IMG/VR virus record: IMGVR_UViG_3300048631_000217
Strand: one strand, 5' to 3'
DNA: 64,000 nucleotides
DNA from: a virus
Taxonomy: Duplodnaviria > Caudoviricetes
The notes beneath the pieces are model-generated. The model had not been told where the DNA came from, did not search any database, and saw nothing but the letters and a program-made list of their open reading frames with translations. Positions 15,399 to 63,913 of this stretch are shown here, piece after piece (positions within the stretch are counted from its first letter, which is position 1; every line of letters starts with the position of its first letter). The translations under genes were made by a program, and so were the position numbers.

Positions 15399-16166
15399 AT
15401 GACCACCATGTTTGACTTTGAAGACGGCAAAGGCCCTGTCCCGGCCCATCAACATCCGAACGGCGGCGGATGGGTCGCGGACACCGCGTATGTGGCCGAA
15501 ACCGCCTATGTCGGGCCGGATGCTCGTGTTTACGGGGATGCTTGGGTTTCCGGGCAGGCTCGTGTTTACGGGCAGGCTCAGGTTTCCGGGCAGGCTCGTG
15601 TTTTCGGGTATGCTCATGTTTTCGGGTATGCTCATGTTTTCGGGCAGGCTCAGGTTTACGGGCAGGCTCGTGTTTACGGGCAGGCTCAGGTTTCCGGGGA
15701 TGCTCAGGTTTTCGGGCAGGCTCAGGTTTCCGGGCAGGCTCGTGTTTCCGGGCAGGCTCGTGTTTACGGGCAGGCTCAGGTTTCCGGGCAGGCTCGTGTT
15801 TTCGGGTATGCTCATGTTTTCGGGTATGCTCATGTTTTCGGGTATGCTCATGTTTCCGGGCAGGCTCGTGTTTACGGGCAGGCTCAGGTTTTCGGGGATG
15901 CTCAGGTTTTCGGGCAGGCTCAGGTTTACGGGGATGCTTGGGTTTCCGGGCAGGCTCGGGTGAAAGGAATGGTGGCCAAGACCCCTATTGTGATCACTGG
16001 ATTTCCGTTCAATGTCACGATTGAGGACGAGTTGATCAACATCGGGTGCAAATCCATGACTCTTGAAGAATGGGAATCTGAGAAGGGTCGCGAGGCTTTT
16101 GATGGAGATTTCTCAAACAAATACGAAAATGCTATGACCGCGATCAAGGCCCTAAAAAACGTCTAA
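15399..16166 (+). CDS. Hexapeptide-repeat (left-handed beta-helix-like) protein, long form, 25 hexads
   Basis: Own promoter/RBS; N-cap PVPAHQHPNGGGWVADTA; A-x-V-[YFS]-G-x repeats; C-terminal TPIVITGFPF...NIGC domain. Confidence 0.88.
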   Translation: MTTMFDFEDGKGPVPAHQHPNGGGWVADTAYVAETAYVGPDARVYGDAWVSGQARVYGQAQVSGQARVFGYAHVFGYAHVFGQAQVYGQARVYGQAQVSGDAQVFGQAQVSGQARVSGQARVYGQAQVSGQARVFGYAHVFGYAHVFGYAHVSGQARVYGQAQVFGDAQVFGQAQVYGDAWVSGQARVKGMVAKTPIVITGFPFNVTIEDELINIGCKSMTLEEWESEKGREAFDGDFSNKYENAMTAIKALKNV

Positions 16167-16171
16167 GACGA

Positions 16172-17485
16172 TCAACGAAAGATAAGGCAACCACTGTCAT
16201 AGACAACATGGTGGCCTAACACGACAGGCGAAGGCGGGGTTTCGGCTATGATAGCGAACCCCGCCTCCTTGTATGTTATGTAATCATCATAACGTCTGTC
16301 GCACCTTATTAATGCGTTGTGGTATTCATCTTTTCTTTTCAAAAATTCGATGATACGAAGGGGCGCGTCAGGTAGAAAATAACCGATTTTCGTAGCATAG
16401 TTGTTTATGACCAACCCATTGTCGTATGACATTCCAACAACATACAAGAGTGTGTTACCCGAAAAAATACCAAAGGCGCGCGTCATTTCCGGTATGTGTA
16501 AATGATTCTCATCAAAGAACCTCTCAGCAACGTTTGTGGGTATCTGAGTAATGTTGCTGATGTCTGGTAGGGGTTTACCGTAATGCAGCGCCTGTTCTAT
16601 CATGCTGATGACGATATCAGGTTTCTCTTCCCCTTCATGTTGATGAAAATGTAGAAGCCTTATACCCAATCTCTCACAAGCCAAAGTCTTGTCCAGATGA
16701 TAATTCTTCCCGACCTTTTCGGCACTATGCCAGTACGTTCCATTAACCTCTACAGCGACCTTGTGTGTTGGGAAATACAGGTCAAGTTCCTTTGGGGGAA
16801 TGATTTTCCGGCTGTTGTGAATCGCCTTCGGAAAACGGTCTTGCAGGAACCGTTCTATAGATGATGTGGCCCGGTTGTTAGGTATAAGCCCTCTTGTCCG
16901 CACCGATACATAATCCCGAGAACACCCAAGAAATTCAGCAAAGTCTTTCGTGGTCCAGCCTAGGCTTACCTTATCCTTGACCCAATCAGTGTCAGACAAT
17001 CTTACGTCAATGCGACCGAAACGTTTTTTCAACCCCTCGCGAAAAACGTTTCGACTTCGATGCGGATCGGTATCAAGTTCCTGTCTTAGTCGATATAGAG
17101 AAACCCCATAACGTTCCGAAAGTTCATTTAAAGTCACCGAACCATCATTCATGTATTCGGCGCGGGCCGTCTCTATGGAATTGGTAAGATCGTGTCTGGC
17201 GGATTCTGCTCTTACCCGGTTTCTCTTCGCATTGGTAGCCGTGTTACGTTGGCCTGTAGCCGTATACGCACACGACTTCCCGCAATACTTCCCGTAGCCT
17301 TTCTTCAATGAAATGAACCTGACCGGCTCATTATTGCATACCTGACATAAGGGGCGTTCAAGGTTATGAGCGGTTCGATACGCCAATTCCTTGTCTGGCA
17401 CATCCCCCGGCAACACGCCCATTTTCCGACCATTGGGCGACTTCCCGTCTCTGAGACACCGGACCACATATTCAAATTTTGTCAA
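16172..17485 (-). CDS. Putative homing endonuclease (Hef-like/Vsr-type PD-(D/E)XK)
   Basis: ELDLYFP...AVEVNGTYWHS...YHLDK...GIRLLH; N-terminal Cys pairs; free-standing between gp13 and gp14. Confidence 0.75.
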   Translation of the reverse strand: MTKFEYVVRCLRDGKSPNGRKMGVLPGDVPDKELAYRTAHNLERPLCQVCNNEPVRFISLKKGYGKYCGKSCAYTATGQRNTATNAKRNRVRAESARHDLTNSIETARAEYMNDGSVTLNELSERYGVSLYRLRQELDTDPHRSRNVFREGLKKRFGRIDVRLSDTDWVKDKVSLGWTTKDFAEFLGCSRDYVSVRTRGLIPNNRATSSIERFLQDRFPKAIHNSRKIIPPKELDLYFPTHKVAVEVNGTYWHSAEKVGKNYHLDKTLACERLGIRLLHFHQHEGEEKPDIVISMIEQALHYGKPLPDISNITQIPTNVAERFFDENHLHIPEMTRAFGIFSGNTLLYVVGMSYDNGLVINNYATKIGYFLPDAPLRIIEFLKRKDEYHNALIRCDRRYDDYITYKEAGFAIIAETPPSPVVLGHHVVYDSGCLIFR

Positions 17486-17487
17486 AG

Positions 17488-18228
17488 CTATCCGATCATG
17501 TTGTGAACCGGAAGACTATAACTGCTAATCATTTCGTCTTCAAGCTGCATTATCTCGTCTCTGGCGTCCGACAGGATTTGTTGGCCATTAAACATTACAC
17601 CGCCGGGCAATTGCATGTTCTCAAATTTGGTCAAATTCGACCCCCATTGATATTTCATTTTGGCAGTTGCGTAATTCTGTAGCCAACGGTCTTTCCAAAC
17701 ATCAACATAGATATTTGGATCAACGATGTTATAGCATTCCGCCACGACATATTGACCTTCGACAACCTTCTTCCAATCCATGTCAATATACAGGCGGTTC
17801 ATATGCCTATTGTATCTCATTGGGGATTGACCTGACAAAATGTCTTCCATCAATTCGATATGCTGTCTGGTCATGACGTAATTCAACATAGAATATGAGG
17901 CAATATCGGTAATGTTGTTTAACATGAATTGGTATTTCGCATTGAACATACCGGAAGCTGTCAAATAGCTACTGATATCAAATATGTTCACAACCCCTAT
18001 AATGCTTTCAGGAATGGTGATATATCCATTTGCGATATCTGTGGCCGTTAGCTGATACTTGAAATAGGTCTTCTCTGTACCGTCGAAATGGTAATCCCAA
18101 TAGTATGACAAAGCTTCGTCAATTCTATCTTCGGCTTGATCATCTGAAATGTTGATATCAATGACAGGTTTGCCTAATTTACGTAGGCACCATTCTTTGA
18201 AATCAAGTCTATTGGTCGGTTGTGGCAT
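17488..18228 (-). CDS. gp13: Neck protein
   Basis: CLRKLGKPVIDINI, DYHFDG, QWGSNL.KF...LPGGV.FNG. Confidence 0.95.
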   Translation of the reverse strand: MPQPTNRLDFKEWCLRKLGKPVIDINISDDQAEDRIDEALSYYWDYHFDGTEKTYFKYQLTATDIANGYITIPESIIGVVNIFDISSYLTASGMFNAKYQFMLNNITDIASYSMLNYVMTRQHIELMEDILSGQSPMRYNRHMNRLYIDMDWKKVVEGQYVVAECYNIVDPNIYVDVWKDRWLQNYATAKMKYQWGSNLTKFENMQLPGGVMFNGQQILSDARDEIMQLEDEMISSYSLPVHNMIG

Positions 18229-18312
18229 TGTTAATTCCTTACCAGAATGCGGGCAGGACCATATACAAGGAAGGGTCCAATGTCAGGATACGTTGGTATA
18301 TGGCACGATAGA

Positions 18313-18528
18313 TCATTTGAAAACTGAATCCTTTCCTTCATCATCTTCCTTTGATTTGACTAGGTGTCCCTTGTCAATCAATTCAAGGAAGTTACCCAAA
18401 CGATACCAATACCATTTATGTTGACCTTTGGCCGCTCTCGATGAAATGGTTTCGTCGGGATCACCAAAGAGGATCGTGTTTGCGAGTTGATCCAATGCTA
18501 TAAGAATGTTCCAGATATATCGTTTCAT
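18313..18528 (-). CDS. Small conserved fibre-associated hypothetical protein
   Basis: NILIALDQLAN..GDPDETISSR motif typical of genes near tail fibres. Confidence 0.7.
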   Translation of the reverse strand: MKRYIWNILIALDQLANTILFGDPDETISSRAAKGQHKWYWYRLGNFLELIDKGHLVKSKEDDEGKDSVFK

Positions 18529-18920
18529 GCTTCTATCGTCATTGCTAATCGGAATAAGTCATCCACTTGGGTTTCGGTCAATCCGATCAATGCCGACAGG
18601 TTGGCAATCGTCGGGCTGTTACGGCGGAACTCGACGGCTTCGGCCCATGCCAGTTTCGACACGGAATCGGCATTGGCCAATGCTGCCTCGACTTGAGGTA
18701 ACAAACCCTGTTGCATCAATGCTGCCTTTGCCTGAAACCGGGAACATACCATTTTGGTGCGTTCCTTGTCAATCGTGTCGGCTTCGTCGCGGATGACAAA
18801 ATCCTTGTCGGACCAACCGGCCCTTACCGGAGTCACGAAATTGCCATTCGGAAGTCTCAGGATAGTATCGTCAGACACATCCATGACATATTCACCAGTT
18901 TTTCGAAACAGTTTAAGCAT
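18525..18920 (-). CDS. Putative tail fibre assembly chaperone
   Basis: SRFQAKAAL...AW.EA.EF.R.SP...QVDDLF; directly after fibre gene. Confidence 0.65.
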   Translation of the reverse strand: MLKLFRKTGEYVMDVSDDTILRLPNGNFVTPVRAGWSDKDFVIRDEADTIDKERTKMVCSRFQAKAALMQQGLLPQVEAALANADSVSKLAWAEAVEFRRNSPTIANLSALIGLTETQVDDLFRLAMTIEA

Positions 18921-18930
18921 ATCCTATCCC

Positions 18931-34599: not shown

Positions 34600-35019
34600 T
34601 TATCTCACCCTGTCAAGTAAAAGGTCAAGTGTAGAAGGTTCCTCAGTATTTATGGTATTGAAAATGATTCGAACGAATACGGAATTTGAGTCAACCGAAG
34701 TGTCAACCACGATTTCAATGACGTTACACCTTGGCTCGTAATTCTCTAGCGTGTTGCGGATATTCTCGCGTAACACGACAACAAGGTCTGGTGTGATGTT
34801 CTCAAACAACATACCCCGAATGTCAGAGCCGATTTCGGGGTTGAATAACCGTTCTCCCCTATCTGTCAGGATCAGGTTTCGAATGGATTCCTTGATAGAA
34901 TCATCATCCGTTCTTCGGGCCAAATCGTTATTGACAGGGGATGCTTTAAGATCCTTCCTGTAATCAGAATACACCACTTGACGATTTTTTCTGGATAAAG
35001 TCATTTTCCCTCTTGACAT
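34600..35019 (-). CDS. gp25: Baseplate wedge subunit
   Basis: IRNLILT..GERLFNP.IGS...LFE, YEPR (start may be 35004). Confidence 0.93.
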   Translation of the reverse strand: MSRGKMTLSRKNRQVVYSDYRKDLKASPVNNDLARRTDDDSIKESIRNLILTDRGERLFNPEIGSDIRGMLFENITPDLVVVLRENIRNTLENYEPRCNVIEIVVDTSVDSNSVFVRIIFNTINTEEPSTLDLLLDRVR

Positions 35020-35041
35020 TGATTCCGGGTTTTGGTATAAT
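35013..35041 (+). promoter_or_regulatory. Consensus sigma70 promoter with extended -10 (copy 1)
   Basis: TTGACA(35013)-17-TATAAT(35036), TG at extended -10. Confidence 0.85.
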
Positions 35042-35306: not shown

Positions 35307-35335
35307 TTGACATGGTTTTCGGAATTTGGTATAAT
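35307..35335 (+). promoter_or_regulatory. Consensus sigma70 promoter with extended -10 (copy 2)
   Basis: TTGACA(35307)-17-TATAAT(35330), TG at extended -10. Confidence 0.85.
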
Positions 35336-36412: not shown

Positions 36413-36730
36413 TCAGAAGTTGTAGTCGTAGAACCGCCGGGGTTTGTCGGAAATGTTGTAGCGGTTCCCGTACTTGTCGAACCACTTTCCGTTTTTCCGT
36501 TGCCGGATGGCGAAGGTTTCTTCGTTCGGCAGGGATTCGTAGTCGTATTCTTGTGAATAGTTATTGACCGTATGGGCCGCGAAACCTCCGGGAATCATGT
36601 CAGGCTTCCAGTCAGGCTTCAGAGTCGCTTTCATGGGCCGGATCATCTTTTTCCGCTCAGTCCGAGTCTCGACAACCTCGAAAGGTTCAACATCGGTGTA
36701 GAGAACCTTGTTGGCATATTCTTGGGTCAT
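36413..36730 (-). CDS. Hypothetical early protein in promoter-leader cassette
   Basis: Same promoter/leader as hexapeptide genes; own terminator. Confidence 0.8.
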   Translation of the reverse strand: MTQEYANKVLYTDVEPFEVVETRTERKKMIRPMKATLKPDWKPDMIPGGFAAHTVNNYSQEYDYESLPNEETFAIRQRKNGKWFDKYGNRYNISDKPRRFYDYNF

Positions 36731-36736: not shown

Positions 36737-36820
36737 TTTCCTTTCCTATCGCTTACATGATTAATATAGGAACTCTAGGTAACTTTGTCAAGAGAAAAAC
36801 GCCCCCGAAGGGACGTTTTC
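36737..36820 (-). promoter_or_regulatory. Terminator (UUCG hairpin) abutting early promoter and leader
   Basis: AAAACGTCCC-TTCG-GGGGCGTTTT then TTGACA(36791)-17-TATATT-AATCATGTAAGCGATAGGAAAGGAA. Confidence 0.85.
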
Positions 36821-36824: not shown

Positions 36825-37385
36825 TTATTTAGTGATTTTGATGTCCCCGGACACCCAAACATCACCGGAAACCCGAGCATTCCCGTAAACCCGAGCATCA
36901 CCCGAAACCCGAGCATCACCCGAAACCCGAGCATTTCCGTAAACCCGAGCAATCCCGAAAACATGAGCCTTTCCAGAAACCCAAGCATTCTCCAAAACCC
37001 GAGCATTGCGCGAAACCAAAGCATACCCGGAACCCCGAGCATCCCCGTAAACCCGAGCATACCCGAAAACCCGAGCATGCCCGTAAACCCGAGCCTTCCC
37101 GAAAATCTGAGCCTTTTCATAAACCCGAGCATTCCCCAAAACCTGAGCATTCCCGTAAACCCGAGCATTGTCCGAAACCTGAGCATCCCCGTAAACCCGA
37201 GCATCCCCGTAAACCCGAGCCTTCCCGAAAATCTGAGCATCCTCGAAAACCCGAGCATCCGGCCCAACATATGCACTATCAGCAACATGCGCCGTATCAG
37301 CGACCCAACCGCCCCCGTTGGGGTGGCGGTGGGCCGGGACCGGGCCAGTCCCAAAATCAAACATGGTTTGTTCGGTCATCTTCAT
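36825..37385 (-). CDS. Hexapeptide-repeat protein, short form, 23 hexads
   Basis: N-cap MTEQTMFDFGTGPVPAHRHPNGGGW; A-x-V-x-G-x repeats; ends IKITK. Confidence 0.87.
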   Translation of the reverse strand: MKMTEQTMFDFGTGPVPAHRHPNGGGWVADTAHVADSAYVGPDARVFEDAQIFGKARVYGDARVYGDAQVSDNARVYGNAQVLGNARVYEKAQIFGKARVYGHARVFGYARVYGDARGSGYALVSRNARVLENAWVSGKAHVFGIARVYGNARVSGDARVSGDARVYGNARVSGDVWVSGDIKITK

Positions 37386-37386: not shown

Positions 37387-37467
37387 TTCCTTCTATCGCT
37401 TACATGTTTAATATAGGGACTATAAGAAACTTTGTCAAGTAAAAAACGCCCCCGAAGGGACGTTTTC
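37387..37467 (-). promoter_or_regulatory. Terminator plus early promoter and leader
   Basis: Same UUCG hairpin; TTGACA(37438)-17-TATATT; CATGTAAGCGATAGAAGGAA. Confidence 0.85.
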
Positions 37468-37471: not shown

Positions 37472-37954
37472 TTATTCAGTGATTTTGATGTCCCCGGACA
37501 CCCAAGCATTCCCAGAAACCTGAGCATTACCGCATACCCAAACCTTTCCGAAAACCCGAGCATCCCCGAAAACCCGAGCATCCCCGAAAACCCGAGCATA
37601 TCCAGAAACCCAAGCATTACCCGAAACCTGAGAATATTCGGAAACATGAGCCTTTCCGTATACCTGAGCATACTCGAAAATCCGAGCATGCCCAAATACC
37701 AGAGCATACCCGAATACCCGAGCATTCCCGTAAACCCAAGCATTCCCAGAAACCCGAGCATTCCCGAAAACCAGAGCCTTTCCGAAAACCCGAGCATTAT
37801 CCGAAACCAGAGCATCTCCCCAAACCCGAGCATCCGGGCCGACAAAAGCCGTATTCGCAACATAGGCGGTATCGGCAACCCAACCGCCCCCGTTGGGGTG
37901 GCGATGGGCCGGGACCGGCCCGGTTCCGAAATCAAACATGGTTTGTTCGGTCAT
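37472..37954 (-). CDS. Hexapeptide-repeat protein, short form, 19 hexads
   Basis: Same N-cap and end; 24 aa shorter than neighbour. Confidence 0.87.
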   Translation of the reverse strand: MTEQTMFDFGTGPVPAHRHPNGGGWVADTAYVANTAFVGPDARVWGDALVSDNARVFGKALVFGNARVSGNAWVYGNARVFGYALVFGHARIFEYAQVYGKAHVSEYSQVSGNAWVSGYARVFGDARVFGDARVFGKVWVCGNAQVSGNAWVSGDIKITE

Positions 37955-37961: not shown

Positions 37962-38045
37962 TTCCTTTCTATCGCTTACATCTTTAATATAGGGTCTATA
38001 AGGAAATTTGTCAAGAAAAAAAAACGCCCCCGAAGGGACGTTTTC
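37962..38045 (-). promoter_or_regulatory. Terminator plus early promoter and leader
   Basis: Same UUCG hairpin; TTGACA(38014)-17-TATATT; ATGTAAGCGATAGAAAGGAA. Confidence 0.85.
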
Positions 38046-38049: not shown

Positions 38050-38442
38050 TTATTCAGTGATTTTGGTATCATCGCAGACCCAAGTATTCCCGAAAACCCA
38101 AGCATACCCGAAAACCTGAGCATTCCCAGAAACCTGAGCATCATCGAATACCCAAACGTTCCCGAAAACCCGAGCATTCCCGAAAACCCGAGCCTTTCCG
38201 TAAACCCAAGCCTTTCCGAAAACCCGAGCATTATCTGAAACCCGAGCATTTCCGAAAACCCGAGCCTTTCCGAAAACCCGAGCATTATCTGAAACCCGAG
38301 CATTACCTGAAACCTGAGCATTCGGCCCGACATATGCACTATCAGCAACATGCGCCGTATCAGCGACCCAACCGCCCCCGTTGGGGTGGCGGTGGGCCGG
38401 GACCGGGCCAGTCCCAAAATCAAACATGGTTTGTTCGGTCAT
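38050..38442 (-). CDS. Hexapeptide-repeat protein, short form, 14 hexads
   Basis: Same N-cap; upstream degenerate promoter TTGAAA-17-TATGTT and same leader. Confidence 0.87.
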   Translation of the reverse strand: MTEQTMFDFGTGPVPAHRHPNGGGWVADTAHVADSAYVGPNAQVSGNARVSDNARVFGKARVFGNARVSDNARVFGKAWVYGKARVFGNARVFGNVWVFDDAQVSGNAQVFGYAWVFGNTWVCDDTKITE

Positions 38443-38499
38443 CTTCGTGTTCCTTCTATCGCTTACATGTTTAGAACATAGAGGAAGACAACAAAGATT

Positions 38500-38634
38500 T
38501 CAACTCATCTTGTTAAACTTTTTCTCTTTGTCAGACTTCACCATGACGATCTCTTTGGGTTGTTTGTTTCTCTTGTAGCGTCCATACAAGACTCCCACGA
38601 CGATACCTACAAGTGCGATTAAGATAATTTCCAT
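38500..38634 (-). CDS. 44-aa single-TM membrane protein
   Basis: Below ORF-track cutoff; RBS AGGAG; MEIILIALVGIVVGVLYGRYKRNKQPKE... Confidence 0.65.
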   Translation of the reverse strand: MEIILIALVGIVVGVLYGRYKRNKQPKEIVMVKSDKEKKFNKMS

Positions 38635-38648: not shown

Positions 38649-40628
38649 TTATGACGACCAGCTTCTTGCCGGTCCAATATCCACATGTATGAAACTGTTA
38701 TAGTACCCGAACCCCTTGAATCCGATATTCTTGCACCGGGATACGAATAAATCTCTGTTTATACCCCCCATCAACACATCCAGAGCCTTTCCAGAAAGAT
38801 GTTGACTGTTCTTTGCCGCCCCTACGCCAGTGTTTCTCAAATATTGATTATAGACCGGGTGTCGGAATGCGGAGGTGACGTTTAGCGTACGTCCCATCAT
38901 CTTTCCCACCTCATTCAACATTTCAAGAACCTTTGCTTCGGTGTACCAATATCCGACATCATTTGGCAGGCCAAGCTTTTTAGGGATGACTTGACCGCCG
39001 CCATAGTCACGCATCGACACGACTTTTTCTGAATTCCAGAAAGGATTGTTGATAACTTTTCCGGTGAAGGAAAGGTTGCTCCATTCACTATGATGACGGG
39101 TTGGCGTACCCTTTGTGAAAATCATGCGACCATCCAACCCGTCACTTTTAGGTCTCGGGTTGATGTATGCTTGGTTGGCGTAAGACTTGCGAGACTCCAT
39201 GCGCGGTATTTCGGGACGTAAGAAATCTTGAGAGAAAATTTCGGTAGCTGCGTTGACGGAATCGGTGTTCCGAATCTTGTTCAAAACCTGTCCTTCACCT
39301 GATCGAAGTTCTTGTTTCAGGAATCCGTAGTTCGCATCATATGAAGTTATGTCAAGACCGCGTTCGGCGACATAACGTTCGAATGCTTCTCGTCTGGCCC
39401 CGGTCCATTGGGCATATCCTATACCACCTCTTCCGGCCAAGGGGGAAACCTCTTGTAAAATCTCGAACCCCTGAGTTTCATGTGATAGATTCCCGACTAT
39501 ACCAGCGGCTTGAGTCCTAGTCAAGTTGAAATCCTTTTGCAGATCTTCCATAAGTCTTGACGTGATCTGGTCATTGCCAAGCGGACGAATGAACGCGGCA
39601 TTATGCAGATTTTCGAACGTTTGACAATCCTGTTTCAAAGATACAGGTTCGGCGAACAATCTACCTGCCTCGACTGATTGTCTTGTATTGTCTTCCGACA
39701 TAAGCCGCAGCTTTTCGTATTCTTCCGCCGATTTTGTCGATAGCCTGACGAAAGGTTCTGTCATGCTCTTGATATCGCTTTCGACAAATGACGACATACG
39801 ACAGAACAGGTATAGCAGGTATTCGACAATACTACCATCAAGCTTTCGTTCCTTGAAGGCGTTCGATGCGGTTATCATCAATGTGTCGATACGTGATTTA
39901 AGATTCTCGACATTTACCGACGACAGGGATATTCGCAAATCGGCGTACATTTCACCGATACGATCATTCATTGACTGAAAGGTTTGTGTCTGTAGAGGAA
40001 ACCCACTTACAAGATTCTGTATACGTCTCAGACTGGCATCAATCTTCTTCAGGGAATCGGCAACAAGCTGATCCACCACCCGTTTGACGATTGTTCCGAA
40101 TGACCGCAGTTTTGCCGAAATATCGGATAGTCCACCATTCATGATCTTGTTGACTGCATTCGCGATACCCGGAACGAAGCTGCACAATCCACCTAATGCC
40201 GTTGTAATCAATCCGGCAGACAAGAACCTGTCCAATTCTGACAGGATTGTTGTCGGGGATGTTTTCATGGCATTCTGGAATGTATCGGTATCTGGATAGG
40301 CATAGGAATCCATGAATTCCGCCATTTCAACATAAGTAACACCTACCCGAACGATTCTATCATTCACATTCGGATACAGGCTCGGATTGTCCTTGACGAT
40401 TGGCGAAAGGTTATTGTTGAAATATGACATGACCGGCAATAGATTATCGACCCCGCCATATCGACGTAGCAGGGTTTCGCCACGATTGATATCCTTCCCG
40501 AATTCGTCAAGAATTCTCGGGTAGTCGGATAATCCTGTGAAATATTCCGGGGTCACGACATTGACGGTTTCGCTTATATACGGCGAATTGCTGTTGATCG
40601 TGACAATTGTTGTATTGCTACACGTCAT
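38649..40628 (-). CDS. Virion-associated peptidoglycan hydrolase (phage tail lysozyme + peptidase M15)
   Basis: AAGIVGNL..E...GYAQWTG.RR lysozyme; SAFRH...SQHLSGKALD...FIHVD M15 zinc peptidase. Confidence 0.85.
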   Translation of the reverse strand: MTCSNTTIVTINSNSPYISETVNVVTPEYFTGLSDYPRILDEFGKDINRGETLLRRYGGVDNLLPVMSYFNNNLSPIVKDNPSLYPNVNDRIVRVGVTYVEMAEFMDSYAYPDTDTFQNAMKTSPTTILSELDRFLSAGLITTALGGLCSFVPGIANAVNKIMNGGLSDISAKLRSFGTIVKRVVDQLVADSLKKIDASLRRIQNLVSGFPLQTQTFQSMNDRIGEMYADLRISLSSVNVENLKSRIDTLMITASNAFKERKLDGSIVEYLLYLFCRMSSFVESDIKSMTEPFVRLSTKSAEEYEKLRLMSEDNTRQSVEAGRLFAEPVSLKQDCQTFENLHNAAFIRPLGNDQITSRLMEDLQKDFNLTRTQAAGIVGNLSHETQGFEILQEVSPLAGRGGIGYAQWTGARREAFERYVAERGLDITSYDANYGFLKQELRSGEGQVLNKIRNTDSVNAATEIFSQDFLRPEIPRMESRKSYANQAYINPRPKSDGLDGRMIFTKGTPTRHHSEWSNLSFTGKVINNPFWNSEKVVSMRDYGGGQVIPKKLGLPNDVGYWYTEAKVLEMLNEVGKMMGRTLNVTSAFRHPVYNQYLRNTGVGAAKNSQHLSGKALDVLMGGINRDLFVSRCKNIGFKGFGYYNSFIHVDIGPARSWSS

Positions 40629-51170: not shown

Positions 51171-51566
51171 GGTGAGGTGTTTCTGTTTCTAGGCACACCC
51201 CAAAGCCCACAGACCTTACGCCACTAGGGCAGTCTTAGGAGCAAAGTTTTCGTTTGCCTCTATTGGTTTGTTGCGTTAACGCAGCTTCCGCGCGTAGTCT
51301 CCACACACCGTCCAATGTCTGTCGATCCTAGTATCAGGCCCATCAAAAACACATAAAGGGATTTAAACTACTCTCGCCGCTCGGGTCAAACGGATCTCCG
51401 GTTTATCATCCCGGTGTTCTATGGCGGCTTCCTAGACCACCATTACCCATTCCCTTTTTCGGATGTTTCATTTCTAGGAAAAATGCCACATCCTATATGT
51501 GCTTTTGGTGGACCTGTGCGGTACTGCCCCGCAGTCCAGACCATCTTCAAGTCGCTTCATCGACTA
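51171..51566 (-). ncRNA. ssrA: Two-piece circularly permuted tmRNA, tag (A)ANENFAPKTALVA
   Basis: T-arm TGCGG-GGCAGTA-CCGCA and CAGGTCC-ACCA (ends 51506) precede the 5' end GGGCCTG (51341) with G3-U70; tag ORF 51257..51216; 3' AACAGAAAC motif. Confidence 0.93.
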
Positions 51567-51573
51567 TGTTAGT

Positions 51574-51602
51574 TATATAGTATGTTTCGAATCTCTCGTC
51601 AA
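51574..51602 (-). promoter_or_regulatory. Promoter for tmRNA
   Basis: TTGACG-17-TATATA. Confidence 0.75.
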
Positions 51603-51607
51603 GTGTC

Positions 51608-58744: not shown

Positions 58745-58748
58745 AGCT

Positions 58749-59280: not shown

Positions 59281-59310
59281 GAAAGAGGGGTAGCGGCTTA
59301 CGCCGCTACC
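59281..59310 (-). terminator. Hairpin terminator with DUF932 stop in loop
   Basis: GGTAGCGGC-GTAA-GCCGCTACC then pyrimidine run. Confidence 0.55.
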
Positions 59311-60287: not shown

Positions 60288-60359
60288 AATTTGTCTCCCT
60301 CTCTATGATAGGAATATATGTCAGCCGTCATACCACGTCAAGACTTTTGTGGAAAAACT

Positions 60360-61175
60360 TCAGGTAAGGGTTCGGGTCACGTTCAGTCCCATGGTCGTAT
60401 ACCCCCTATCCATCAAGTCTTCGGCAAGACTGCGGTAATCATCGCGGTAGGCAGCAACCTTGGCGGGGTCATAGCCACGGTCCCGGCTCTCTTCGGATAC
60501 CCATGCTGCATAAGCGGCCTTGTAGCGACGGATTAACTCGTCATCATCTTCCGAGTCGTTTTCCTCTTCATGTAATGCCCGAGATACGTTATGATGTAGG
60601 TCTTGCAACGTCCCGTGGTTGTAAAAGACTTTATCAAACTCGCCAATATCGCGAATCCAACGCCATTCGCTTTCGTGTACATGGGCGAGAGTGCTATCGG
60701 GTAGTTTTCCAGAATTAACATCCACGGCGATATCATACCATGCGATATCTTGTCTGAATACAGCCCATAACTGCCCCCCGGCCATTTGAATGATATCTTG
60801 CTCGTTTCGAAACCGGCAATCGGCAATGACATAGTTCTTATCAGGGTTCCCGAGAATCTTTTTCGCGACGATATGCACCCACACATCTTCATGAAATCCC
60901 CGGCGCATACATTCCGTGCCAAAAATCTGCAAGACGTATCGCGGGGTAATATCCTTACCCAACGCCTTTGACCAATACGGATCGGGTTGTTCCCGCCATT
61001 CCCGAGATTCTATCGTATCCCCTTCCAACAAGTGACGCGGCCAATCGAACAAGATGGCAACAGTATCCTTCAACTTGTCGGCGAATGAAATCTTTTCGAA
61101 ATCGTGATATTCTATCAAGTAATCCGCAATGGTTCCCTTGCCGCTACCGATCTGCCCACATAAACCAATAATCAT
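60360..61175 (-). CDS. gp1: Deoxynucleoside monophosphate kinase (gp1-like) with C-terminal extension
   Basis: IIGLCG..GSGK.T, SFAD.LK, TPR.VLQ..GTE, D.RF.NE, H.SE. Confidence 0.88.
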   Translation of the reverse strand: MIIGLCGQIGSGKGTIADYLIEYHDFEKISFADKLKDTVAILFDWPRHLLEGDTIESREWREQPDPYWSKALGKDITPRYVLQIFGTECMRRGFHEDVWVHIVAKKILGNPDKNYVIADCRFRNEQDIIQMAGGQLWAVFRQDIAWYDIAVDVNSGKLPDSTLAHVHESEWRWIRDIGEFDKVFYNHGTLQDLHHNVSRALHEEENDSEDDDELIRRYKAAYAAWVSEESRDRGYDPAKVAAYRDDYRSLAEDLMDRGYTTMGLNVTRTLT

Positions 61176-61645
61176 TCTACCCCCTTCCAAGTTCTTCGAT
61201 CTACAACATCCCTAATTGTCCTAGGTGTAACCCCATAAAGATCTGCCAATTCAGTATGTAACAAACCTTCTTCTCTACCTTTCCGAATCTTTCTTACAAC
61301 ATCTTCGTTCAACTTTCGGCCACTTATATAGCCTTCGGCGTTCAATACATCTTGGGCATTTTCGGAAAGTGTTCCGATTTGCAGATTGTCTTCATGGCAG
61401 TTTTCGCGATTGCCGTCAAGGTGTCTGACAAGCAATCCCTTCGGACAGGGGCCGTGAAATGCCTCGGATACCAGCTTGTGCAGGCGCTTGTAATACTTTT
61501 TCCCGTTCTTGTTGAGCGATAATCTCAGGTAGCCGTTATTGTCCTTGGACAATGCCATGATGTGTCCCTTGGCATTCCTAACCCGTCCTCGGTTCGATAC
61601 CTGATATAACCCCTCAAACCCGACCACACATAACCATATCTCCAT
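61172..61645 (-). CDS. NUMOD4-HNH homing endonuclease
   Basis: EIW...GFEGLYQVSNRGRVR; HKLV..AF, HLDGN..N....NL. Confidence 0.9.
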   Translation of the reverse strand: MEIWLCVVGFEGLYQVSNRGRVRNAKGHIMALSKDNNGYLRLSLNKNGKKYYKRLHKLVSEAFHGPCPKGLLVRHLDGNRENCHEDNLQIGTLSENAQDVLNAEGYISGRKLNEDVVRKIRKGREEGLLHTELADLYGVTPRTIRDVVDRRTWKGVE

Positions 61646-61648
61646 CCC

Positions 61649-62068
61649 TTATTTCTGCACCACCAAAGCGCCATCAAGCCACGGAACAACTTCGATCACA
61701 ACACCGTACATCGTAGATTGAGCCTGCATCGGCTGAAGTTCCATGACATCAATTTTTTGGTCATACATGACTTCTTGAAGCTGTTTCGCGCCGATCATTA
61801 TTTTGAGATCTTCCCTTTTGCAACGATACTCCCTCATAGCCATGTCAATCTGGTAATTGATGCCAAGAATGATGCTTCTTACGTGTTTTTCGTTTATCTC
61901 ATATGTCTGCATGAACGATGATTCCTCGACCGCACCAAGGCGTTTCAATATCCTCAGCAGGAAATCACAAAACTTGCGGTATCTCTTCGGTCGATAATCA
62001 TAACGTGACTTGTGGTATACTTGCCTTTTGTCAAATTGTACAATCTTTACCGGAATGTTCTTGTACAT
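61649..62068 (-). CDS. Hypothetical protein
   Basis: In-operon ORF. Confidence 0.6.
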   Translation of the reverse strand: MYKNIPVKIVQFDKRQVYHKSRYDYRPKRYRKFCDFLLRILKRLGAVEESSFMQTYEINEKHVRSIILGINYQIDMAMREYRCKREDLKIMIGAKQLQEVMYDQKIDVMELQPMQAQSTMYGVVIEVVPWLDGALVVQK

Positions 62069-62071
62069 CAG

Positions 62072-62590
62072 TCAAACCCTTTCATGAAAAATTGTGTCGG
62101 ATTTCTTCGCTCGGAACCTGTACCAAGCCGCATTGTCTTTGCCGGTGTGTTTCGAATTCTCTATCCACTTCACTCGACCTATTGAAACAATTTTGTCACA
62201 AAACGGCAGATAGTCCATGGCCTGTTTAGTGTGCATCCAATCAGCATCAAACAGGAGCCATGTCGGACAATGGTTCCGAAACCGTTCGATCATCGGATGT
62301 AACAAATGACGCGACCATGGCGGATTCGTGATTATGAAATCAGCAGATGGCAATTCTACAGTCAATGCGTCGGCGGTGTCAATATCTTCGTTTAAAGGTT
62401 CAATGTCTGATAACCAGACGCAAAGCGATCTGGTCAACCCGGTAATGTGGTTGACCAGACGACCATCCCCCGCACAAGGTTCGATGAATGAGAATTCATC
62501 CGGCAGATGCCGGATCAACGGTAAGACCGCCGGTCGCGGTGTCTGGTATAAATCGTTCTTACGTCTTTCAAAATTTGATCGCTTACCCAA
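62072..62590 (-). CDS. DNA amino-methyltransferase (probably N6-adenine)
   Basis: D.Y.TP, EPCAG.G, ITNPPW. Confidence 0.85.
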   Translation of the reverse strand: MGKRSNFERRKNDLYQTPRPAVLPLIRHLPDEFSFIEPCAGDGRLVNHITGLTRSLCVWLSDIEPLNEDIDTADALTVELPSADFIITNPPWSRHLLHPMIERFRNHCPTWLLFDADWMHTKQAMDYLPFCDKIVSIGRVKWIENSKHTGKDNAAWYRFRAKKSDTIFHERV

Positions 62591-62898
62591 TGCTCAATCT
62601 TCGTCCTCTCTAATAACCAACCGTGTTCTTCTGCATGTTTCAGGCATACCGCACATAGACATGCACATATTCCGAATTCTGCATAAGCATCCGTATCAGG
62701 CTTGATGTCAACCATATAAAGATGTTCTTCGCAGAAATAACCCTCACATGATAATCCGCCTTGTTCGCCAGCGTCACCACCACAAGCGAAGGCGAAACCA
62801 CGATGTATCATGATTTCGCATCCCGGATGTTCACATTTTGCCTCTACATTATAACCAGCTTCCTTACCGCTAGGTAAGATGTAACTACCATATCCCAT
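62515..62898 (-). CDS. Cys-rich hypothetical protein
   Basis: CEHPGC...RG....CGG...C.GYFC..H; 3' end overlaps the MTase start. Confidence 0.65.
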   Translation of the reverse strand: MGYGSYILPSGKEAGYNVEAKCEHPGCEIMIHRGFAFACGGDAGEQGGLSCEGYFCEEHLYMVDIKPDTDAYAEFGICACLCAVCLKHAEEHGWLLERTKIEHWVSDQILKDVRTIYTRHRDRRSYR

Positions 62899-62920
62899 CT
62901 GACAAACCTTTCTTTATAAG

Positions 62921-62943
62921 AAAGCGCCCGGAAACGGGCGCTT
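62921..62943 (-). terminator. Intrinsic terminator
   Basis: AAGCGCCCG-TTTC-CGGGCGCTT(T). Confidence 0.7.
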
Positions 62944-62953
62944 GGTGTAATAC

Positions 62954-63301
62954 TTACCGCAGATATTCGGGTCCGGTCCAGCGGATACTATATTCCCCGT
63001 AGATGTTGCCACGGGCGGCGTTCTTGGCCGGTGCGGCCCACGAAGCCGGTTTCAGGATATCGCCTTCCTTGAACTTACCATCATCTTTGGCGACGATGAA
63101 CGAATGGACACTGTTTTCTTTGATGACCTTGACATATTTCTTGCCGAAGGAGTAGGACAGACCTTTCACGAAATCCTGATACATCTTCTCTTGGACTTCG
63201 GATTTGCCGTCGCCTTTGGCAGTCAGAAGCTGATATTCATCATAATCGCGTTTGATGGCTTCGAGATACTGTTCAAGGGCTTTTTGGAGACGTTCGGTCA
63301 T
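62954..63301 (-). CDS. Conserved T4-like-phage hypothetical protein in promoter-leader cassette
   Basis: GKKY.KV...SVH.FI...GDILKPASW.APA..ARGN...W.GP.YL. Confidence 0.8.
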   Translation of the reverse strand: MTERLQKALEQYLEAIKRDYDEYQLLTAKGDGKSEVQEKMYQDFVKGLSYSFGKKYVKVIKENSVHSFIVAKDDGKFKEGDILKPASWAAPAKNAARGNIYGEYSIRWTGPEYLR

Positions 63302-63307
63302 TTCGAA

Positions 63308-63361
63308 TTCCTTTCCTATCGCTTACATGATTAATATAGGCGATAGGAAAGGGTTTGTCAA
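63308..63361 (-). promoter_or_regulatory. Early promoter plus conserved leader
   Basis: TTGACA-17-TATATT-AATCATGTAAGCGATAGGAAAGGAA. Confidence 0.85.
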
Positions 63362-63370
63362 GAGACTTTT

Positions 63371-63913
63371 TCAGAAATCTTCAAAGTCGATGATTCCTTT
63401 GATCAATGCCATAGCCTTTTCATACTTTTCCGAGAAACCTTCATCATCGAAAGCCTTCCGGCCTTTTTTGGATTCCCAATCCTCAAGAGTCATGGACCGG
63501 CATCCGATGTTGATCAGTTCGTCTTCAATCGTTACCGTGAAAGGGAACCCGGTGATCACGATGGGGGTCTTGGGCACGGGGCCTTGGACCAGAGCATTCG
63601 CCAAAACATGAGCCTCTCCGTAAACCCGAGCATTCTCGTAAACACGAGCATTCTCGTAAACACGAGCATCTCCGTAAACACGAGCATTCCCGTAAACCCA
63701 AGCATACCCGAAAACATGTGCATAACCGGAAACACGAGCATACCCGAAAACACGAGCCTGATCGGAAACCCGAGCATACCCGTAAACCCGAGCATCCGGC
63801 CCGACATAGGCGGTTTCGGCGACATACGCGGTGTCCGCGACCCACCCCCCGCCGTTCGGGTGTTGATGGGCCGGTACAGGGCCTTGGCCGTCTTCGAAGT
63901 CAAACATGGTCAT
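63371..63913 (-). CDS. Hexapeptide-repeat protein, long form, 12 hexads
   Basis: N-cap and C-terminal domain nearly identical to 15399..16166. Confidence 0.88.
   Translation of the reverse strand: MTMFDFEDGQGPVPAHQHPNGGGWVADTAYVAETAYVGPDARVYGYARVSDQARVFGYARVSGYAHVFGYAWVYGNARVYGDARVYENARVYENARVYGEAHVLANALVQGPVPKTPIVITGFPFTVTIEDELINIGCRSMTLEDWESKKGRKAFDDEGFSEKYEKAMALIKGIIDFEDF

What the first reader, a model, noticed from the sequence alone, without database searches (positions are those of the whole stretch)
15399..63913. Five-member family of combinatorially variable hexapeptide-repeat proteins (candidate diversifying binder system)
Seen: five paralogs (15399, 36825, 37472, 38050, 63371) share a ~41-aa N-cap and carry 25, 23, 19, 14 and 12 hexads. 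The 18-nt unit is GCT-NNN-GTT-TNC-GGG-NAN. The Ala/Val/Gly codons are nearly invariant even at silent sites, while the other three codons switch among small sets (mainly R/Q/H/W/L; Y/F/S; D/N/Q/Y/K). Known: this fits the left-handed beta-helix pattern [LIV]-x-x-x-[STAV]-x, where V and A face inward. Inference: variation is concentrated on exposed residues, giving a repeat-coded surface reshuffled by unequal recombination. Early promoters suggest host-takeover or anti-defence binders rather than acyltransferases or virion parts.
Basis: partly seen in the sequence, partly recalled or inferred. Interest (0 to 1): 0.85.

Follow-up and report, generated by a model that had tools for sequence, protein, structure and literature searches.

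The report
Phage beta-solenoid repeat protein paralogs
A T4-like phage carries five copies of a very common but functionally unstudied phage gene for a rod-shaped repeat protein, each under its own early-type promoter. The repeats are real and vary mostly on the rod surface, but nothing tested here shows that they are an actively diversifying binder system.

Summary
There are five ORFs with 25, 23, 19, 14 and 12 hexads of A-x-V-x-G-x behind a ~41-aa cap, and the Ala and Val codons are almost invariant (GCT 87/88, GTT 79/89).

All five pass Pfam PF18836 (YdcK beta-solenoid repeat) and match PHROGs 7964 and 5070, both of unknown function. The family has thousands of members in phages. This scan has met it before on other DNA.

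The genes sit in PeSL-like cassettes (sigma-70 promoter, shared leader, UUCG hairpin terminator). These lie in plastic gaps of the late structural module of a T4-like myovirus.

Whole-unit duplication and mosaic paralogs support evolution by unequal recombination. Three results argue against active diversification:
- Among-unit pN/pS at the outward positions is only about 1.1-1.3.
- Ten population clusters of relatives keep an almost constant length and show no focused hypervariability.
- Distant homologues each fix their own core codons.

The conserved parts are the N-cap, family-wide, and a small C-terminal domain. In the ESM Atlas this domain's fold also sits behind canonical hexapeptide and pentapeptide rods.

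Handedness is unresolved. YdcK is the nearest solved sequence and is left-handed. The AlphaFold models superpose on right-handed bactofilin.

Verdict: a new member of a known, uncharacterised family, and not an acyltransferase.

The parts
15339..15398 (+). Promoter-leader cassette of g1. It reads TTGACA-N17-TATATT, then the shared leader CATGTAAGCGATAG, then the GGAAAGGAA ribosome-binding site.
   Evidence: exact match to the cassette motif, with 0.00 expected by chance.
15399..16166 (+). g1, 255 aa. It has the N-cap (aa 1-41), 25 hexads (nt 15522-15971) and a C-terminal alpha/beta domain (nt 15972-16163). It runs antisense to the flanking late genes.
   Evidence: PF18836 scores 56.8 bits and phrog_7964 gives E 4e-80. 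One search finds a 198-nt internal duplication at 94% identity.
16172..17485 (-). Homing-endonuclease-like gene next to g1. Together with g1 it forms a ~2.2-kb insertion between the gp13-like and gp14-like genes.
   Evidence: phrog_3339 homing endonuclease, E 2e-38; in the nearest relatives, L016-L018, gp13 abuts gp14 with nothing between them.
36825..37385 (-). g2, 186 aa from 37385, or 184 aa from the start at 37379 that matches g3 and g4. It has 23 hexads (nt 36843-37256) and ends in GDIKITK with no C-terminal domain.
   Evidence: PF18836 scores 99.5 bits. Pfam Bactofilin scores 29.0 bits against a cut-off of 27.9.
37472..37954 (-). g3, 160 aa, with 19 hexads (nt 37490-37831).
   Evidence: PF18836 scores 83.2 bits.
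38050..38442 (-). g4, 130 aa, with 14 hexads plus a cap hexad (nt 38068-38319).
   Evidence: PF18836 scores 74.3 bits. The AlphaFold model has pLDDT 82-90 across the repeats.
63371..63913 (-). g5, 180 aa, with 12 hexads (nt 63578-63793) and a C-terminal alpha/beta domain (nt 63374-63577). No cassette promoter lies in the 87 nt upstream that the window still holds.
   Evidence: The C-domain has pLDDT 93-97.
37393..37438 (-). Cassette promoter and leader of g2.
37969..38014 (-). Cassette promoter and leader of g3.
38456..38503 (-). Weaker promoter (TTGAAA-N17-TATGTT) with the shared leader, upstream of g4.
36795..36820 (-). Intrinsic terminator after g2. It is an 11-bp stem with a UUCG loop and a U run, and it abuts the next -35 box.
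   Evidence: -15.2 kcal/mol, z -3.8. Also.
37442..37467 (-). The same terminator after g3.
   Evidence: -15.3 kcal/mol.
38020..38045 (-). The same terminator after g4.
   Evidence: -15.5 kcal/mol.
36746..36791 (-). Fourth cassette promoter of the tandem block. It drives an unrelated 105-aa gene (36413-36730).
   Evidence: One search assigns that gene to phrog_19789, of unknown function.
63316..63361 (-). Cassette promoter just downstream of g5. It drives an unrelated 115-aa gene (62954-63301).
   Evidence: One search finds DUF7717 in that gene.

Best explanation
**What they are.** These are five paralogues of the widespread phage 'YdcK-repeat' beta-solenoid family (Pfam PF18836; PHROGs 5070 and 7964). 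They are small cytoplasmic, non-enzymatic rod proteins. Each has a strongly conserved N-terminal cap (F-D-F-x-x-G-P-V-P-A-H-x-H-P-N-G-G-G-W-V-A) and a variable number of A-x-V-x-G-x hexads. In g1 and g5 a small alpha/beta domain follows.

**How they are carried (shown).** The genes sit as single-gene cassettes of PeSL type, with a sigma-70 promoter, a shared leader and a hairpin terminator. The cassettes lie in plastic gaps between late structural genes of a T4-like myovirus, probably one infecting an alphaproteobacterium.

**How the arrays evolve (shown or strongly inferred).** Arrays grow and shrink by whole 18-nt units and by multi-unit blocks. Paralogues exchange segments by homologous recombination. 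Selection holds the inward Ala and Val and the corner Gly. The outward positions drift within a small permitted residue set.

**Function (inferred).** The proteins are made early, from host-RNA-polymerase promoters, and act inside the infected cell as binding or scaffold rods. I take the conserved ends (N-cap and C-domain) as the specific contacts. The basic, Arg- and aromatic-rich rod would supply length, valency or a broad interaction surface. The paralogues would then be a fixed panel of different lengths and surfaces, not a rapidly varying repertoire.
For: **Family.** PF18836 scores above its cut-off in all five. PHROG 7964 and 5070 match at E 4e-80 to 4e-30. More than 6000 and more than 4500 homologues were found. 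The N-cap is invariant or nearly so across diverse homologues.

**Translated and under purifying selection.** Cap differences between g2 and g3 are 13 synonymous and 4 non-synonymous codons. In the C-domain of g1 versus g5 they are 17 and 8.

**Cassettes.** Searches show the promoter, leader and terminator. This architecture matches the PeSLs of T4-like phages (PMC2839356, PMC4122927).

**Insertion into the core module.** gp13 and gp14 are adjacent in the nearest relatives.

**Whole-unit dynamics.**
- g1 carries a 198-nt duplication, and g4 and g5 show 54-nt periods.
- g2 is a mosaic. Its 5' end is 98% identical to g4, and its 3' end is 90% identical to g3.
- Relatives show length variants of 6 or 12 aa.
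- PMC3296602 reports an 18 versus 22 hexad polymorphism.

**Each lineage fixes its own core codons.** The choices are GCT/GTG, GCC/GTA and GCG/GTG in three distant phages. This points to array turnover, not to a special codon.

**Early context in unrelated phages.** Searches show this.

**Portable C-domain.** The ESM Atlas models place the same fold behind YdcK-type, Hexapep and Pentapeptide rods, and in stand-alone 61-89-aa phage proteins.

**Basic rods.** The repeat region has pI 9.4-10.0 and a net charge of +3 to +8.

**Precedent for a non-catalytic binding role.** The acyltransferase-like domain of Svx recognises glycans (PMC13164431). The NCBIfam Svx/AvrXca model, over positions 460-561 of 601, is the best NCBIfam match to our cap plus first hexads (E 7e-23). 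That these model positions lie within Svx's acyltransferase-like domain is my inference and was not checked.
Against: - No member of the family has a tested function, so the binding or scaffold role is inference.
- No expression data exist. Promoter timing is inferred from the sigma-70 consensus alone.
- g5 shows no cassette promoter in the window, and g4's promoter is weak.
- No close relative of this phage could be found, so stability of these particular arrays is untested.
- Population clusters at 90% identity would by construction miss strongly diverged alleles.
- Ala GCT is far more invariant (1 of 88 varies) than the Gly third position (22 of 77 vary). Simple drift plus array turnover does not fully explain this.
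Confidence: 0.55

Rival explanations
1. The arrays are an actively diversifying binder repertoire. Frequent unequal recombination reshuffles a combinatorial exposed surface, and diversity is positively selected in an arms race with host defences.
For: - Variation sits at outward positions, while the Ala and Val codons are fixed even at silent sites.
- The three variable positions are only weakly associated with each other.
- 59 distinct hexads occur among the 93 units.
- g1 has pN/pS 2.6.
- Most homologue clusters are singletons.
- Unit-number polymorphism is published for a prophage gene of this kind (PMC3296602).
Against: - pN/pS at the x positions is about 1.1-1.3 in g2-g5, which is close to neutral.
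- Within-array silent diversity equals between-array diversity except in g1, so most units are old.
- Relatives keep their length, and variability is not focused on positions 2 and 4: 0.12 and 0.10 of columns vary, against 0.10 in the C-domain.
- The identical protein sits on 8 contigs of one T4-like relative.
- The residue sets at each position are the same across the family, which speaks for constraint.
- Variable bases are not adenine-specific. No search for a dedicated diversifying enzyme, such as a reverse transcriptase, was run on this window.
Confidence: 0.13
2. The proteins are bactofilin-like right-handed beta-helices. They polymerise end to end into filaments or scaffolds in the infected cell, as a phage-encoded cytoskeletal element.
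For: - The g4 model superposes on bactofilin BacA (2N3D) at Z 11.2, rmsd 2.2 A over 101 residues, and on 6RIA at Z 9.2, rmsd 2.2 A. Left-handed enzymes reach similar Z only at rmsd 11-12 A. The g5 model shows the same pattern.
- Foldseek's weak top rows are right-handed solenoids.
- Pfam Bactofilin scores 29.0 bits for g2 and 27.8 for g1, against a cut-off of 27.9.
- NCBI names homologues 'polymer-forming cytoskeletal protein'.
- V-x-G-x-A-x places Gly two residues after the core aliphatic residue, not one as in the canonical hexapeptide motif. That bactofilin spaces its Gly the same way is from memory and was not tested here.
Against: - Every solved structure found by sequence is left-handed: YdcK at E 1e-10, LpxA and gamma-carbonic anhydrase.
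- PF18836 scores are far higher than the Bactofilin scores.
- The models are only moderately confident (mean pLDDT 70-74).
- The reverse error is documented. BacM was modelled as left-handed on the YdcK template (PMC4372379), while the BacA ssNMR structure is described as right-handed (from memory; the rmsd pattern fits this). Handedness therefore cannot be read from such sequences.
- Polymerisation is untested.
Confidence: 0.15
3. The proteins are virion components, such as fibres, whiskers or decoration, because they lie inside the structural gene block.
For: - They lie between the neck, baseplate and tail-lysozyme genes.
- There are weak PHROG matches to tail-fibre and baseplate families at E 1e-3 to 1e-2.
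Against: - They have their own sigma-70 promoters and terminators.
- g1 runs antisense to the late operon.
- The insertion is absent from the nearest relatives.
- Homologues in other phages sit in early or replication regions.
Confidence: 0.07
4. The proteins are active hexapeptide-repeat acyltransferases or gamma-carbonic anhydrases.
For: - Automatic names in metagenome sources point this way.
- Acyltransferase models give weak NCBIfam and PDB hits.
Against: - Scores of 15-29 bits fall far below cut-offs of 150-666.
- Pfam Hexapep scores 13-18 bits, below its 27-bit cut-off.
- The arrays are uninterrupted hexads. I see none of the loop insertions or extra segments that, as I recall, such enzymes use to bind substrate.
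- The length varies freely among paralogues.
Confidence: 0.03

Closest known systems
YdcK of Salmonella and E. coli (PDB 2F9C, 2PIG; Pfam PF18836 B_solenoid_ydck; NCBIfam NF040481)
   Same: The hexad type is the same (small-x-aliphatic-x-G-x). YdcK is the best solved sequence match (E 1e-10). PF18836 scores 42-99 bits.
   Different: The window's proteins are not YdcK orthologues. NF040481 scores 36-58 bits against a cut-off of 350. They are much shorter and phage-encoded, with their own N-cap and C-domain. YdcK itself has no known function.
Phage families PHROG 7964, 5070 and 20532, such as S. thermophilus phage Sfi19 orf229 (gp229); the Liberibacter prophage gene CLIBASIA_05650 is annotated as gp229
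   Same: The architecture is the same: rod plus C-domain in an early or replication region. Alleles with 18 versus 22 hexapeptides are published for CLIBASIA_05650 (PMC3296602).
   Different: Here there are five copies in one 64-kb window, all inside a T4-type structural block. The Liberibacter phage hit fetched here scores below the Pfam cut-offs. I did not confirm that it is the CLIBASIA_05650 locus.
PeSL cassettes of T4-like phages (Arbiol et al. 2010, PMC2839356; Comeau et al. 2014, PMC4122927)
   Same: Both are a conserved sigma-70-like promoter plus a GC-rich stem-loop terminator flanking small accessory ORFs. Both serve as sites for homologous recombination and modular shuffling.
   Different: The sequence of the element differs. 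Here the hairpin lies upstream of the -35 box and a 14-nt leader is conserved. Promoter, terminator and mini-circle activities are untested here.
Bactofilins (Pfam PF04519; PDB 2N3D, 6RIA)
   Same: The AlphaFold models superpose on them at 2.2 A, and Pfam scores are borderline. That bactofilins also have a triangular beta-helix with 18 residues per turn and Gly corners is from memory.
   Different: There is no evidence of polymerisation. The conserved N-cap and C-domain belong to the phage family. The stronger sequence affinity is to left-handed proteins.
C-terminal acyltransferase-like domain of Svx/AvrXca peptidases (NCBIfam NF040510)
   Same: The cap plus first hexads align to model positions 460-561 of 601 (E 1e-15 to 7e-23). 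I take these positions to lie in the acyltransferase-like domain, which was not checked. In Svx that domain is non-catalytic and recognises a ligand, the arabinan on extensins (PMC13164431).
   Different: Svx is a secreted two-domain metallopeptidase of plant pathogens. The phage proteins have no peptidase domain, and I see no signal peptide in their N-termini (by eye, not run through a predictor).
Phage pentapeptide-repeat and canonical Hexapep proteins carrying the same C-terminal domain fold (ESM Atlas clusters)
   Same: They share a small alpha/beta C-domain fold (TM 0.70-0.76 over residues 113-180) behind a solenoid rod. Most are viral.
   Different: The rod type differs. The similarity is between predicted models only. 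No function is known for any of them.

Membership tests
PF18836 YdcK beta-solenoid repeat proteins | Whole-protein score at or above Pfam's gathering cut-off of 30 bits | tested here: met
   the scores are 56.8, 99.5, 83.2, 74.3 and 42.4 bits.
YdcK family proper (NCBIfam NF040481, equivalog) | Full-length match at or above 350 bits | tested here: not met
   the scores are 36-58 bits, and only the repeat part aligns.
PHROG 7964 / 5070 (phage proteins of unknown function) | Significant profile match over most of the protein | tested here: met
   E ranges from 4e-80 to 4e-30 for all five. The C-domain of g1 and g5 also matches phrog_20532.
Left-handed beta-helix (trimeric LpxA-like) fold | Left-handed triangular coil of three hexads per turn | tested here: inconclusive
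   All solved sequence neighbours are left-handed. Both AlphaFold models instead fit right-handed helices at 2.2-3.1 A and left-handed ones only at 10-12 A.
Hexapeptide-repeat acyltransferases and gamma-carbonic anhydrases | Enzyme family models or Pfam Hexapep score above their cut-offs | tested here: not met
   Hexapep scores 13-18 bits, below its 27-bit cut-off; the LpxA, LpxD, GlmU, NeuD and CysE models score 15-29 bits against cut-offs of 150-666.
Hexapeptide-repeat acyltransferases and gamma-carbonic anhydrases | Homotrimer with active sites at the subunit interfaces | not testable with these tools
   The oligomeric state needs the purified protein or a solved structure.
Bactofilin (PF04519) | Pfam score at or above 27.9 bits | tested here: inconclusive
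   g2 scores 29.0 (passes), g1 27.8, g3 22.7, g4 19.5 and g5 11.8.
Bactofilin (PF04519) | Polymerisation into filaments | not testable with these tools
   This needs purified protein and EM, or fluorescent fusions.
PeSL regulatory cassettes of T4-like phages | Conserved sigma-70-like promoter joined to a stable stem-loop, flanking small accessory ORFs in plastic regions | tested here: met
   Five cassette copies were found (0.00 expected by chance). The hairpins are 11 bp at -15 kcal/mol and abut the next -35 box. Two cassettes drive unrelated small genes.
PeSL regulatory cassettes of T4-like phages | Demonstrated promoter and terminator activity, and recombination between cassettes | not testable with these tools
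   Only indirect signs are available: the mosaic g2 and an insertion absent from relatives.

The most novel reading that the evidence does not exclude
The paralogues form a phage-encoded panel of repeat-built binders. The Arg- and aromatic-rich outward faces, reshuffled by unit duplication and inter-paralogue recombination, would recognise different host targets such as defence proteins or nucleic acids. The conserved N-cap and the portable C-domain, whose fold also sits behind pentapeptide and canonical hexapeptide rods, would deliver a common effector activity. This would be a solenoid-based counterpart of repeat-protein recognition systems.
Probability: 0.1. Interest if true: 0.8.

Novelty: new member of a known kind. 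Interest (0 to 1): 0.3.

Why it matters
This family is among the commoner unexplained gene families in tailed phages, with thousands of homologues. It is catalogued in Pfam and PHROGs and is often mis-annotated as an acyltransferase, glycerol kinase, transporter or even CRISPR spacers. It has no tested function.

This window offers a clean natural series. Five paralogues share the same cap. Rod lengths run from 12 to 25 hexads. Two carry the C-domain and three lack it. Each sits in its own early-type cassette. That makes the window a convenient starting point for deletion, pull-down and structural work.

Two leads go beyond this phage. First, the handedness conflict: the sequence neighbours are left-handed, but the models are right-handed and bactofilin-like. 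Second, the C-terminal domain's fold recurs behind three different kinds of solenoid rod.

The specific claim of an actively diversifying system is not supported by what could be tested.

Tried and rejected
- **Homotrimer prediction.** g4 in three copies returned no verdict. It counts neither for nor against trimerisation.
- **Fold searches for the C-domain.** Foldseek on PDB and VIA-align wide gave nothing clear, with a best Z of 5.4 to a designed protein.
- **Single-sequence phmmer with the 68-aa C-domain.** It gave 9 hits. The long ones are ankyrin, WD40 and FG-GAP repeat proteins, and I take these as spurious short matches. The real hits are 72-73-aa stand-alone proteins and family members.
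- **Close relatives of this phage.** I looked for them in order to compare arrays. There was no megablast hit in the phage collection. No relative of the gp5-like gene turned up in viral or metagenome contigs. The gp15-like gene has only ~52% relatives. No whole genome is held, and handle searches were not possible.
- **PADLOC.** No hit.
- **Antisense coding.** I considered this as the reason for fixed GCT and GTT, and rejected it. Distant homologues fix other codons, so no antisense peptide is conserved.
- **Translational codon preference.** Rejected. Tyr is TAC at position 4 but TAT at position 6, so the DNA unit is conserved, not a preferred codon.
- **G-quadruplex potential.** The GGG tracts come from the CGG and GGG codons. 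g1 uses CGT and CAG instead, so this is not general.
- **DGR-type mutagenesis.** The variable bases are not adenine-specific. No reverse-transcriptase search was run on the window.
- **Stacking ladders.** Residue identity at a lag of three hexads is no higher than at other lags.
- **T4 late promoter.** TATAAATA occurs 0 times in the window, so late promoters of this phage could not be mapped with the T4 consensus.

Full report
**1. Observation**

ORF listing finds the five genes at the stated coordinates. Tandem Repeats Finder reports period-18 arrays at exactly these five sites and nowhere else in the 64 kb. Parsing in register gives 25, 23, 19, 14 (plus one degenerate terminal hexad) and 12 hexads. 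The first hexad begins at residue 41-44.

Across the 93 units, the residue and codon counts are as follows:
- Position 1 is Ala in 88 units, and 87 of those use GCT.
- Position 3 is Val in 89 units, and 79 use GTT.
- Position 5 is Gly in 77 units, with GGG 55, GGA 14, GGT 7 and GGC 1.
- Position 2 is R/Q/W/H/L, position 4 is F/S/Y, and position 6 is N/D/Q/Y/K.

Long ORFs of the same window use GCT for 18% of Ala, GTT for 29% of Val and GGG for 23% of Gly. The bias is therefore a property of the repeat and not of the genome.

**2. The frame is real and the genes are old paralogues**

All frames are open across such repeats, so frame choice needs support. Three results give it:
- The stated frame carries a ribosome-binding site and hits Pfam PF18836 above its cut-off in all five proteins.
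- In the non-repeat cap, g2 and g3 differ at 13 synonymous and 4 non-synonymous codons.
- In the C-terminal domain, g1 and g5 differ at 17 synonymous and 8 non-synonymous codons.

That is purifying selection on this frame, and it shows substantial age. g2 most likely starts at 37379, like g3 and g4. The lengths are then 184, 160 and 130 aa, differing by 4 and 5 hexads.

**3. What the proteins are**

Family assignment:
- PHROGs 7964 and 5070, both of unknown function, match at E 4e-80 to 4e-30. The C-domain of g1 and g5 matches phrog_20532.
- NCBIfam gives only partial hits. The best is the Svx/AvrXca model over positions 460-561 of 601, followed by YdcK. Both fall far below their cut-offs, and so do the acyltransferase models.
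- PADLOC gives nothing.
- YdcK (2F9C, 2PIG) is the best solved sequence match, at E 1e-10.

Two large-database searches returned more than 6000 and more than 4500 homologues. The nearest are only 73% (g5) and about 62-70% (g4) identical. tblastn finds the family in 76 phage records, covering Streptococcus, Liberibacter, Bacillus, Vibrio, Xanthomonas, Mycobacterium and other hosts. Several copies per genome are common, with 18 places in Lactobacillus phage LfeInf.

Alignments show that the N-cap is not specific to this phage. The motif G-P-V-P-A-H-x-H-P-N-G-G-G-W-V-A is nearly invariant across the family. The C-domain also has a family-wide core: T-P-I-x-I-x-G, then D, then G-C, then W. The conserved parts are thus the two ends, and the rod is the variable part.

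**4. Fold, and a caveat on handedness**

The g4 model has mean pLDDT 73.5, with 82-90 across the repeats. It has two-residue strands every six residues, centred on x2-V3.

The structure searches disagree on chirality:
- Left-handed enzymes reach Z 9-14.5, but only at rmsd 11-12 A.
- Bactofilin and the TibA fragment superpose well. BacA (2N3D) gives Z 11.2 and rmsd 2.2 A over 101 residues. 6RIA gives Z 9.2 and rmsd 2.2 A. TibA (4Q1Q) gives Z 11.2 and rmsd 2.2 A. I recall all three as right-handed helices.
- The weaker g5 model behaves the same way, with YdcK at rmsd 10.5 A and BacA at 3.1 A.
- Foldseek's weak top rows are right-handed solenoids.

So the models are right-handed, while every sequence neighbour with a solved structure is left-handed. 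Pfam Bactofilin is borderline, with g2 at 29.0 bits against a cut-off of 27.9. The literature holds the mirror of this problem. BacM was homology-modelled as a left-handed helix on the YdcK template (PMC4372379). The later BacA structure, as I recall it, is right-handed. I therefore treat handedness as open. It does not change which positions face outward.

**5. Genomic setting**

The window is the structural region of a T4-like myovirus:
- The portal is 59% identical to those of Sinorhizobium phages phiM12, phiM7 and phiN3.
- gp13-, gp14-, gp15- and gp25-like genes and a tail-lysozyme gene are present.
- A permuted alpha-type tmRNA gene points to an alphaproteobacterial host.

g1 lies antisense between the gp14-like gene and a homing-endonuclease-like gene. 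In the nearest relatives, about 52% identical, gp13 abuts gp14. The endonuclease gene plus g1 is therefore an insertion.

g4, g3 and g2 form a tandem block upstream of an unrelated small gene. Each unit has these parts:
- A promoter, TTGACA-N17-TATATT, which is weaker for g4.
- The leader CATGTAAGCGATAG and a GGAAAGGAA ribosome-binding site.
- The ORF.
- An 11-bp UUCG hairpin (-15 kcal/mol) with a U run that abuts the next -35 box.

The same cassette drives two unrelated small genes (36413-36730 and 62954-63301). This is the architecture of the PeSLs of T4-like phages. PeSLs flank accessory ORFs in hyperplastic regions and mediate modular shuffling (PMC2839356, PMC4122927).

Homologues in unrelated phages sit in early or replication regions:
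- Before the RNA polymerase gene in an Autographiviridae phage.
- Behind the lysis-lysogeny switch in Streptococcus phage phiST1.
- Beside primase or helicase genes in a mycobacteriophage, in Sfi19 and in a Liberibacter phage.

Early expression is thus a reasonable inference, but it is not shown.

**6. How the arrays evolve**

Evidence for whole-unit turnover:
- g1 contains a 198-nt (11-unit) duplication at 94% identity.
- g4 and g5 show 54-nt periods.
- g2 is mosaic. Its first 126 nt are 98% identical to g4, and its last 48 nt are 90% identical to g3.
- A Liberibacter prophage hexapeptide-repeat gene has alleles of 18 and 22 hexads (PMC3296602).
- 90%-identity clusters of relatives contain rare variants of +6, -6 and -12 aa.

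Distant homologues each fix a different synonymous set. Aeromonas phage Aer_P220 uses GCT/GTG/GGC. Streptococcus phage phiST1 uses GCC in 31 of 31 Ala hexads and GTA in 31 of 31 Val hexads. Mycobacterium phage Boilgate uses GCG/GTG. Silent-site uniformity is therefore a family-wide signature of array amplification and homogenisation, not a special codon.

**7. Is it a diversifying system?**

The tests I could run do not support that reading:
- Among-unit pN/pS is 0-0.6 at the core codons. At the x positions it is 1.1-1.3 in g2-g5, and 2.6 only in the recently duplicated g1.
- Within-array silent diversity (0.23-0.34) equals between-array diversity (0.29), except in g1 (0.08). Most units are therefore old.
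- The three variable positions are only weakly associated, so 'combinatorial' is a fair description. The residue sets are small, partly array-specific (Q at position 6 in g1, N/D/K in g2-g4) and shared by the whole family. That indicates constraint.
- In ten population clusters of relatives, the fraction of variable columns is 0.07 in the N-cap, 0.10 in the C-domain, and 0.08, 0.12, 0.13, 0.10, 0.08 and 0.21 at hexad positions 1-6. Only the corner residue stands out, about two-fold.
- One T4-like relative carries the identical 183-aa protein on 8 contigs whose upstream gene content differs.

There are caveats. Clusters at 90% identity cannot contain strongly diverged alleles. Short-read assemblies may collapse repeats. 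No close relative of this phage exists in the collections searched.

One residue of surprise remains. The Ala third position varies in 1 of 88 units, against 22 of 77 for Gly. Drift plus homogenisation does not fully explain this difference.

**8. Function**

Nothing is known experimentally for any member. These leads came from the session:
- The repeat regions are basic (pI 9.4-10.0, net charge +3 to +8) and rich in Arg, Tyr, Phe and Trp on the outward positions.
- The N-cap is the most conserved element.
- In ESM Atlas models, the C-domain fold sits behind YdcK-type, canonical Hexapep and Pentapeptide rods, and it occurs alone in 61-89-aa phage proteins, mostly viral. The rod therefore seems interchangeable, and the C-domain looks like a portable module.
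- The acyltransferase-like domain of Svx is non-catalytic and recognises a ligand (PMC13164431). The NCBIfam Svx/AvrXca model, over positions 460-561 of 601, is the best NCBIfam match to our cap plus first hexads. Equating those positions with that domain is my inference.
- One homologue in a 244-kb T4-like contig lies about 8 kb from an Acb1-type gene. This is weak evidence.

My best reading is an early, non-enzymatic binding or scaffold rod, with specificity in the ends and length or surface supplied by the repeats. Filament formation of the bactofilin kind is the main structural alternative.

**9. Verdict**

Active diversification is not supported, and left-handedness remains open.

This is a new member, and a tidy five-paralogue example, of a known, catalogued but uncharacterised phage family. 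The scan has met this family repeatedly on other DNA. A first-stage note on an overlapping window of the same genome mentions further paralogues beyond this window's end. I could not check that.

Noticed in passing
window 51171-51606 (-): A phage-borne permuted (two-piece, alpha-type) tmRNA gene. Rfam tmRNA_permuted scores 103.5 bits and alpha_tmRNA 81 bits. ARAGORN gives the tag peptide ANENFAPKTALVA. It suggests an alphaproteobacterial host.
   Followed up: partly
window 16172-17485 (-): A homing-endonuclease-like gene (phrog_3339) lies between the gp13-like and gp14-like genes, back to back with g1. The nearest relatives have gp13 directly next to gp14, so the endonuclease gene and g1 look like one inserted block.
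   Followed up: partly
window 15371-15384, 36746-36759, 37393-37406, 37969-37982, 38456-38469, 63316-63329: The shared 14-nt leader CATGTAAGCGATAG follows the -10 box by three bases. It contains ATG-TAA, a start codon directly followed by a stop, near the predicted 5' end of each transcript. Its role is unknown.
   Followed up: no
window 35013-35041 and 35307-35335 (+): Two perfect TTGACA-N17-TATAAT promoters with a TG extension lie on the opposite strand, in the small-gene pocket next to the gp25-like gene. They form a second promoter type, distinct from the cassette promoters.
   Followed up: no
window, whole: The T4 late-promoter consensus TATAAATA is absent from the whole 64-kb structural region (0 found, 2.3 expected). 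This phage's late promoters must differ from T4's.
   Followed up: no
L002 (Vibrio phage 1.139.A, MG592510.1) 3102-3241: In several Vibrio breoganii phage records, the 18-nt repeats of the homologous gene are annotated as CRISPR spacers. Other records call homologues glycerol kinase or MFS transporter. I take all of these as mis-annotations.
   Followed up: partly
window 63374-63577 (-) and 15972-16163 (+): In ESM Atlas models, the C-terminal alpha/beta domain fold of g5 (and, by homology, g1) sits behind three different solenoid rod types: YdcK-type, Hexapep and Pentapeptide. It also occurs as stand-alone small phage proteins. No solved fold matched it clearly.
   Followed up: partly
L005 1604-2149 and 16084-17127: The 244-kb T4-like metagenome contig that carries homologue P0059 also encodes an Acb1-family protein. 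It has a reverse-transcriptase (RVT_1) gene beside the prohead protease and major capsid genes.
   Followed up: no
window 38649-40628 (-): The gp5-like protein combines a phage tail lysozyme domain (PF18013) with a C-terminal M15 peptidase domain. That gives two different wall-cutting activities in one baseplate-hub-like protein.
   Followed up: no
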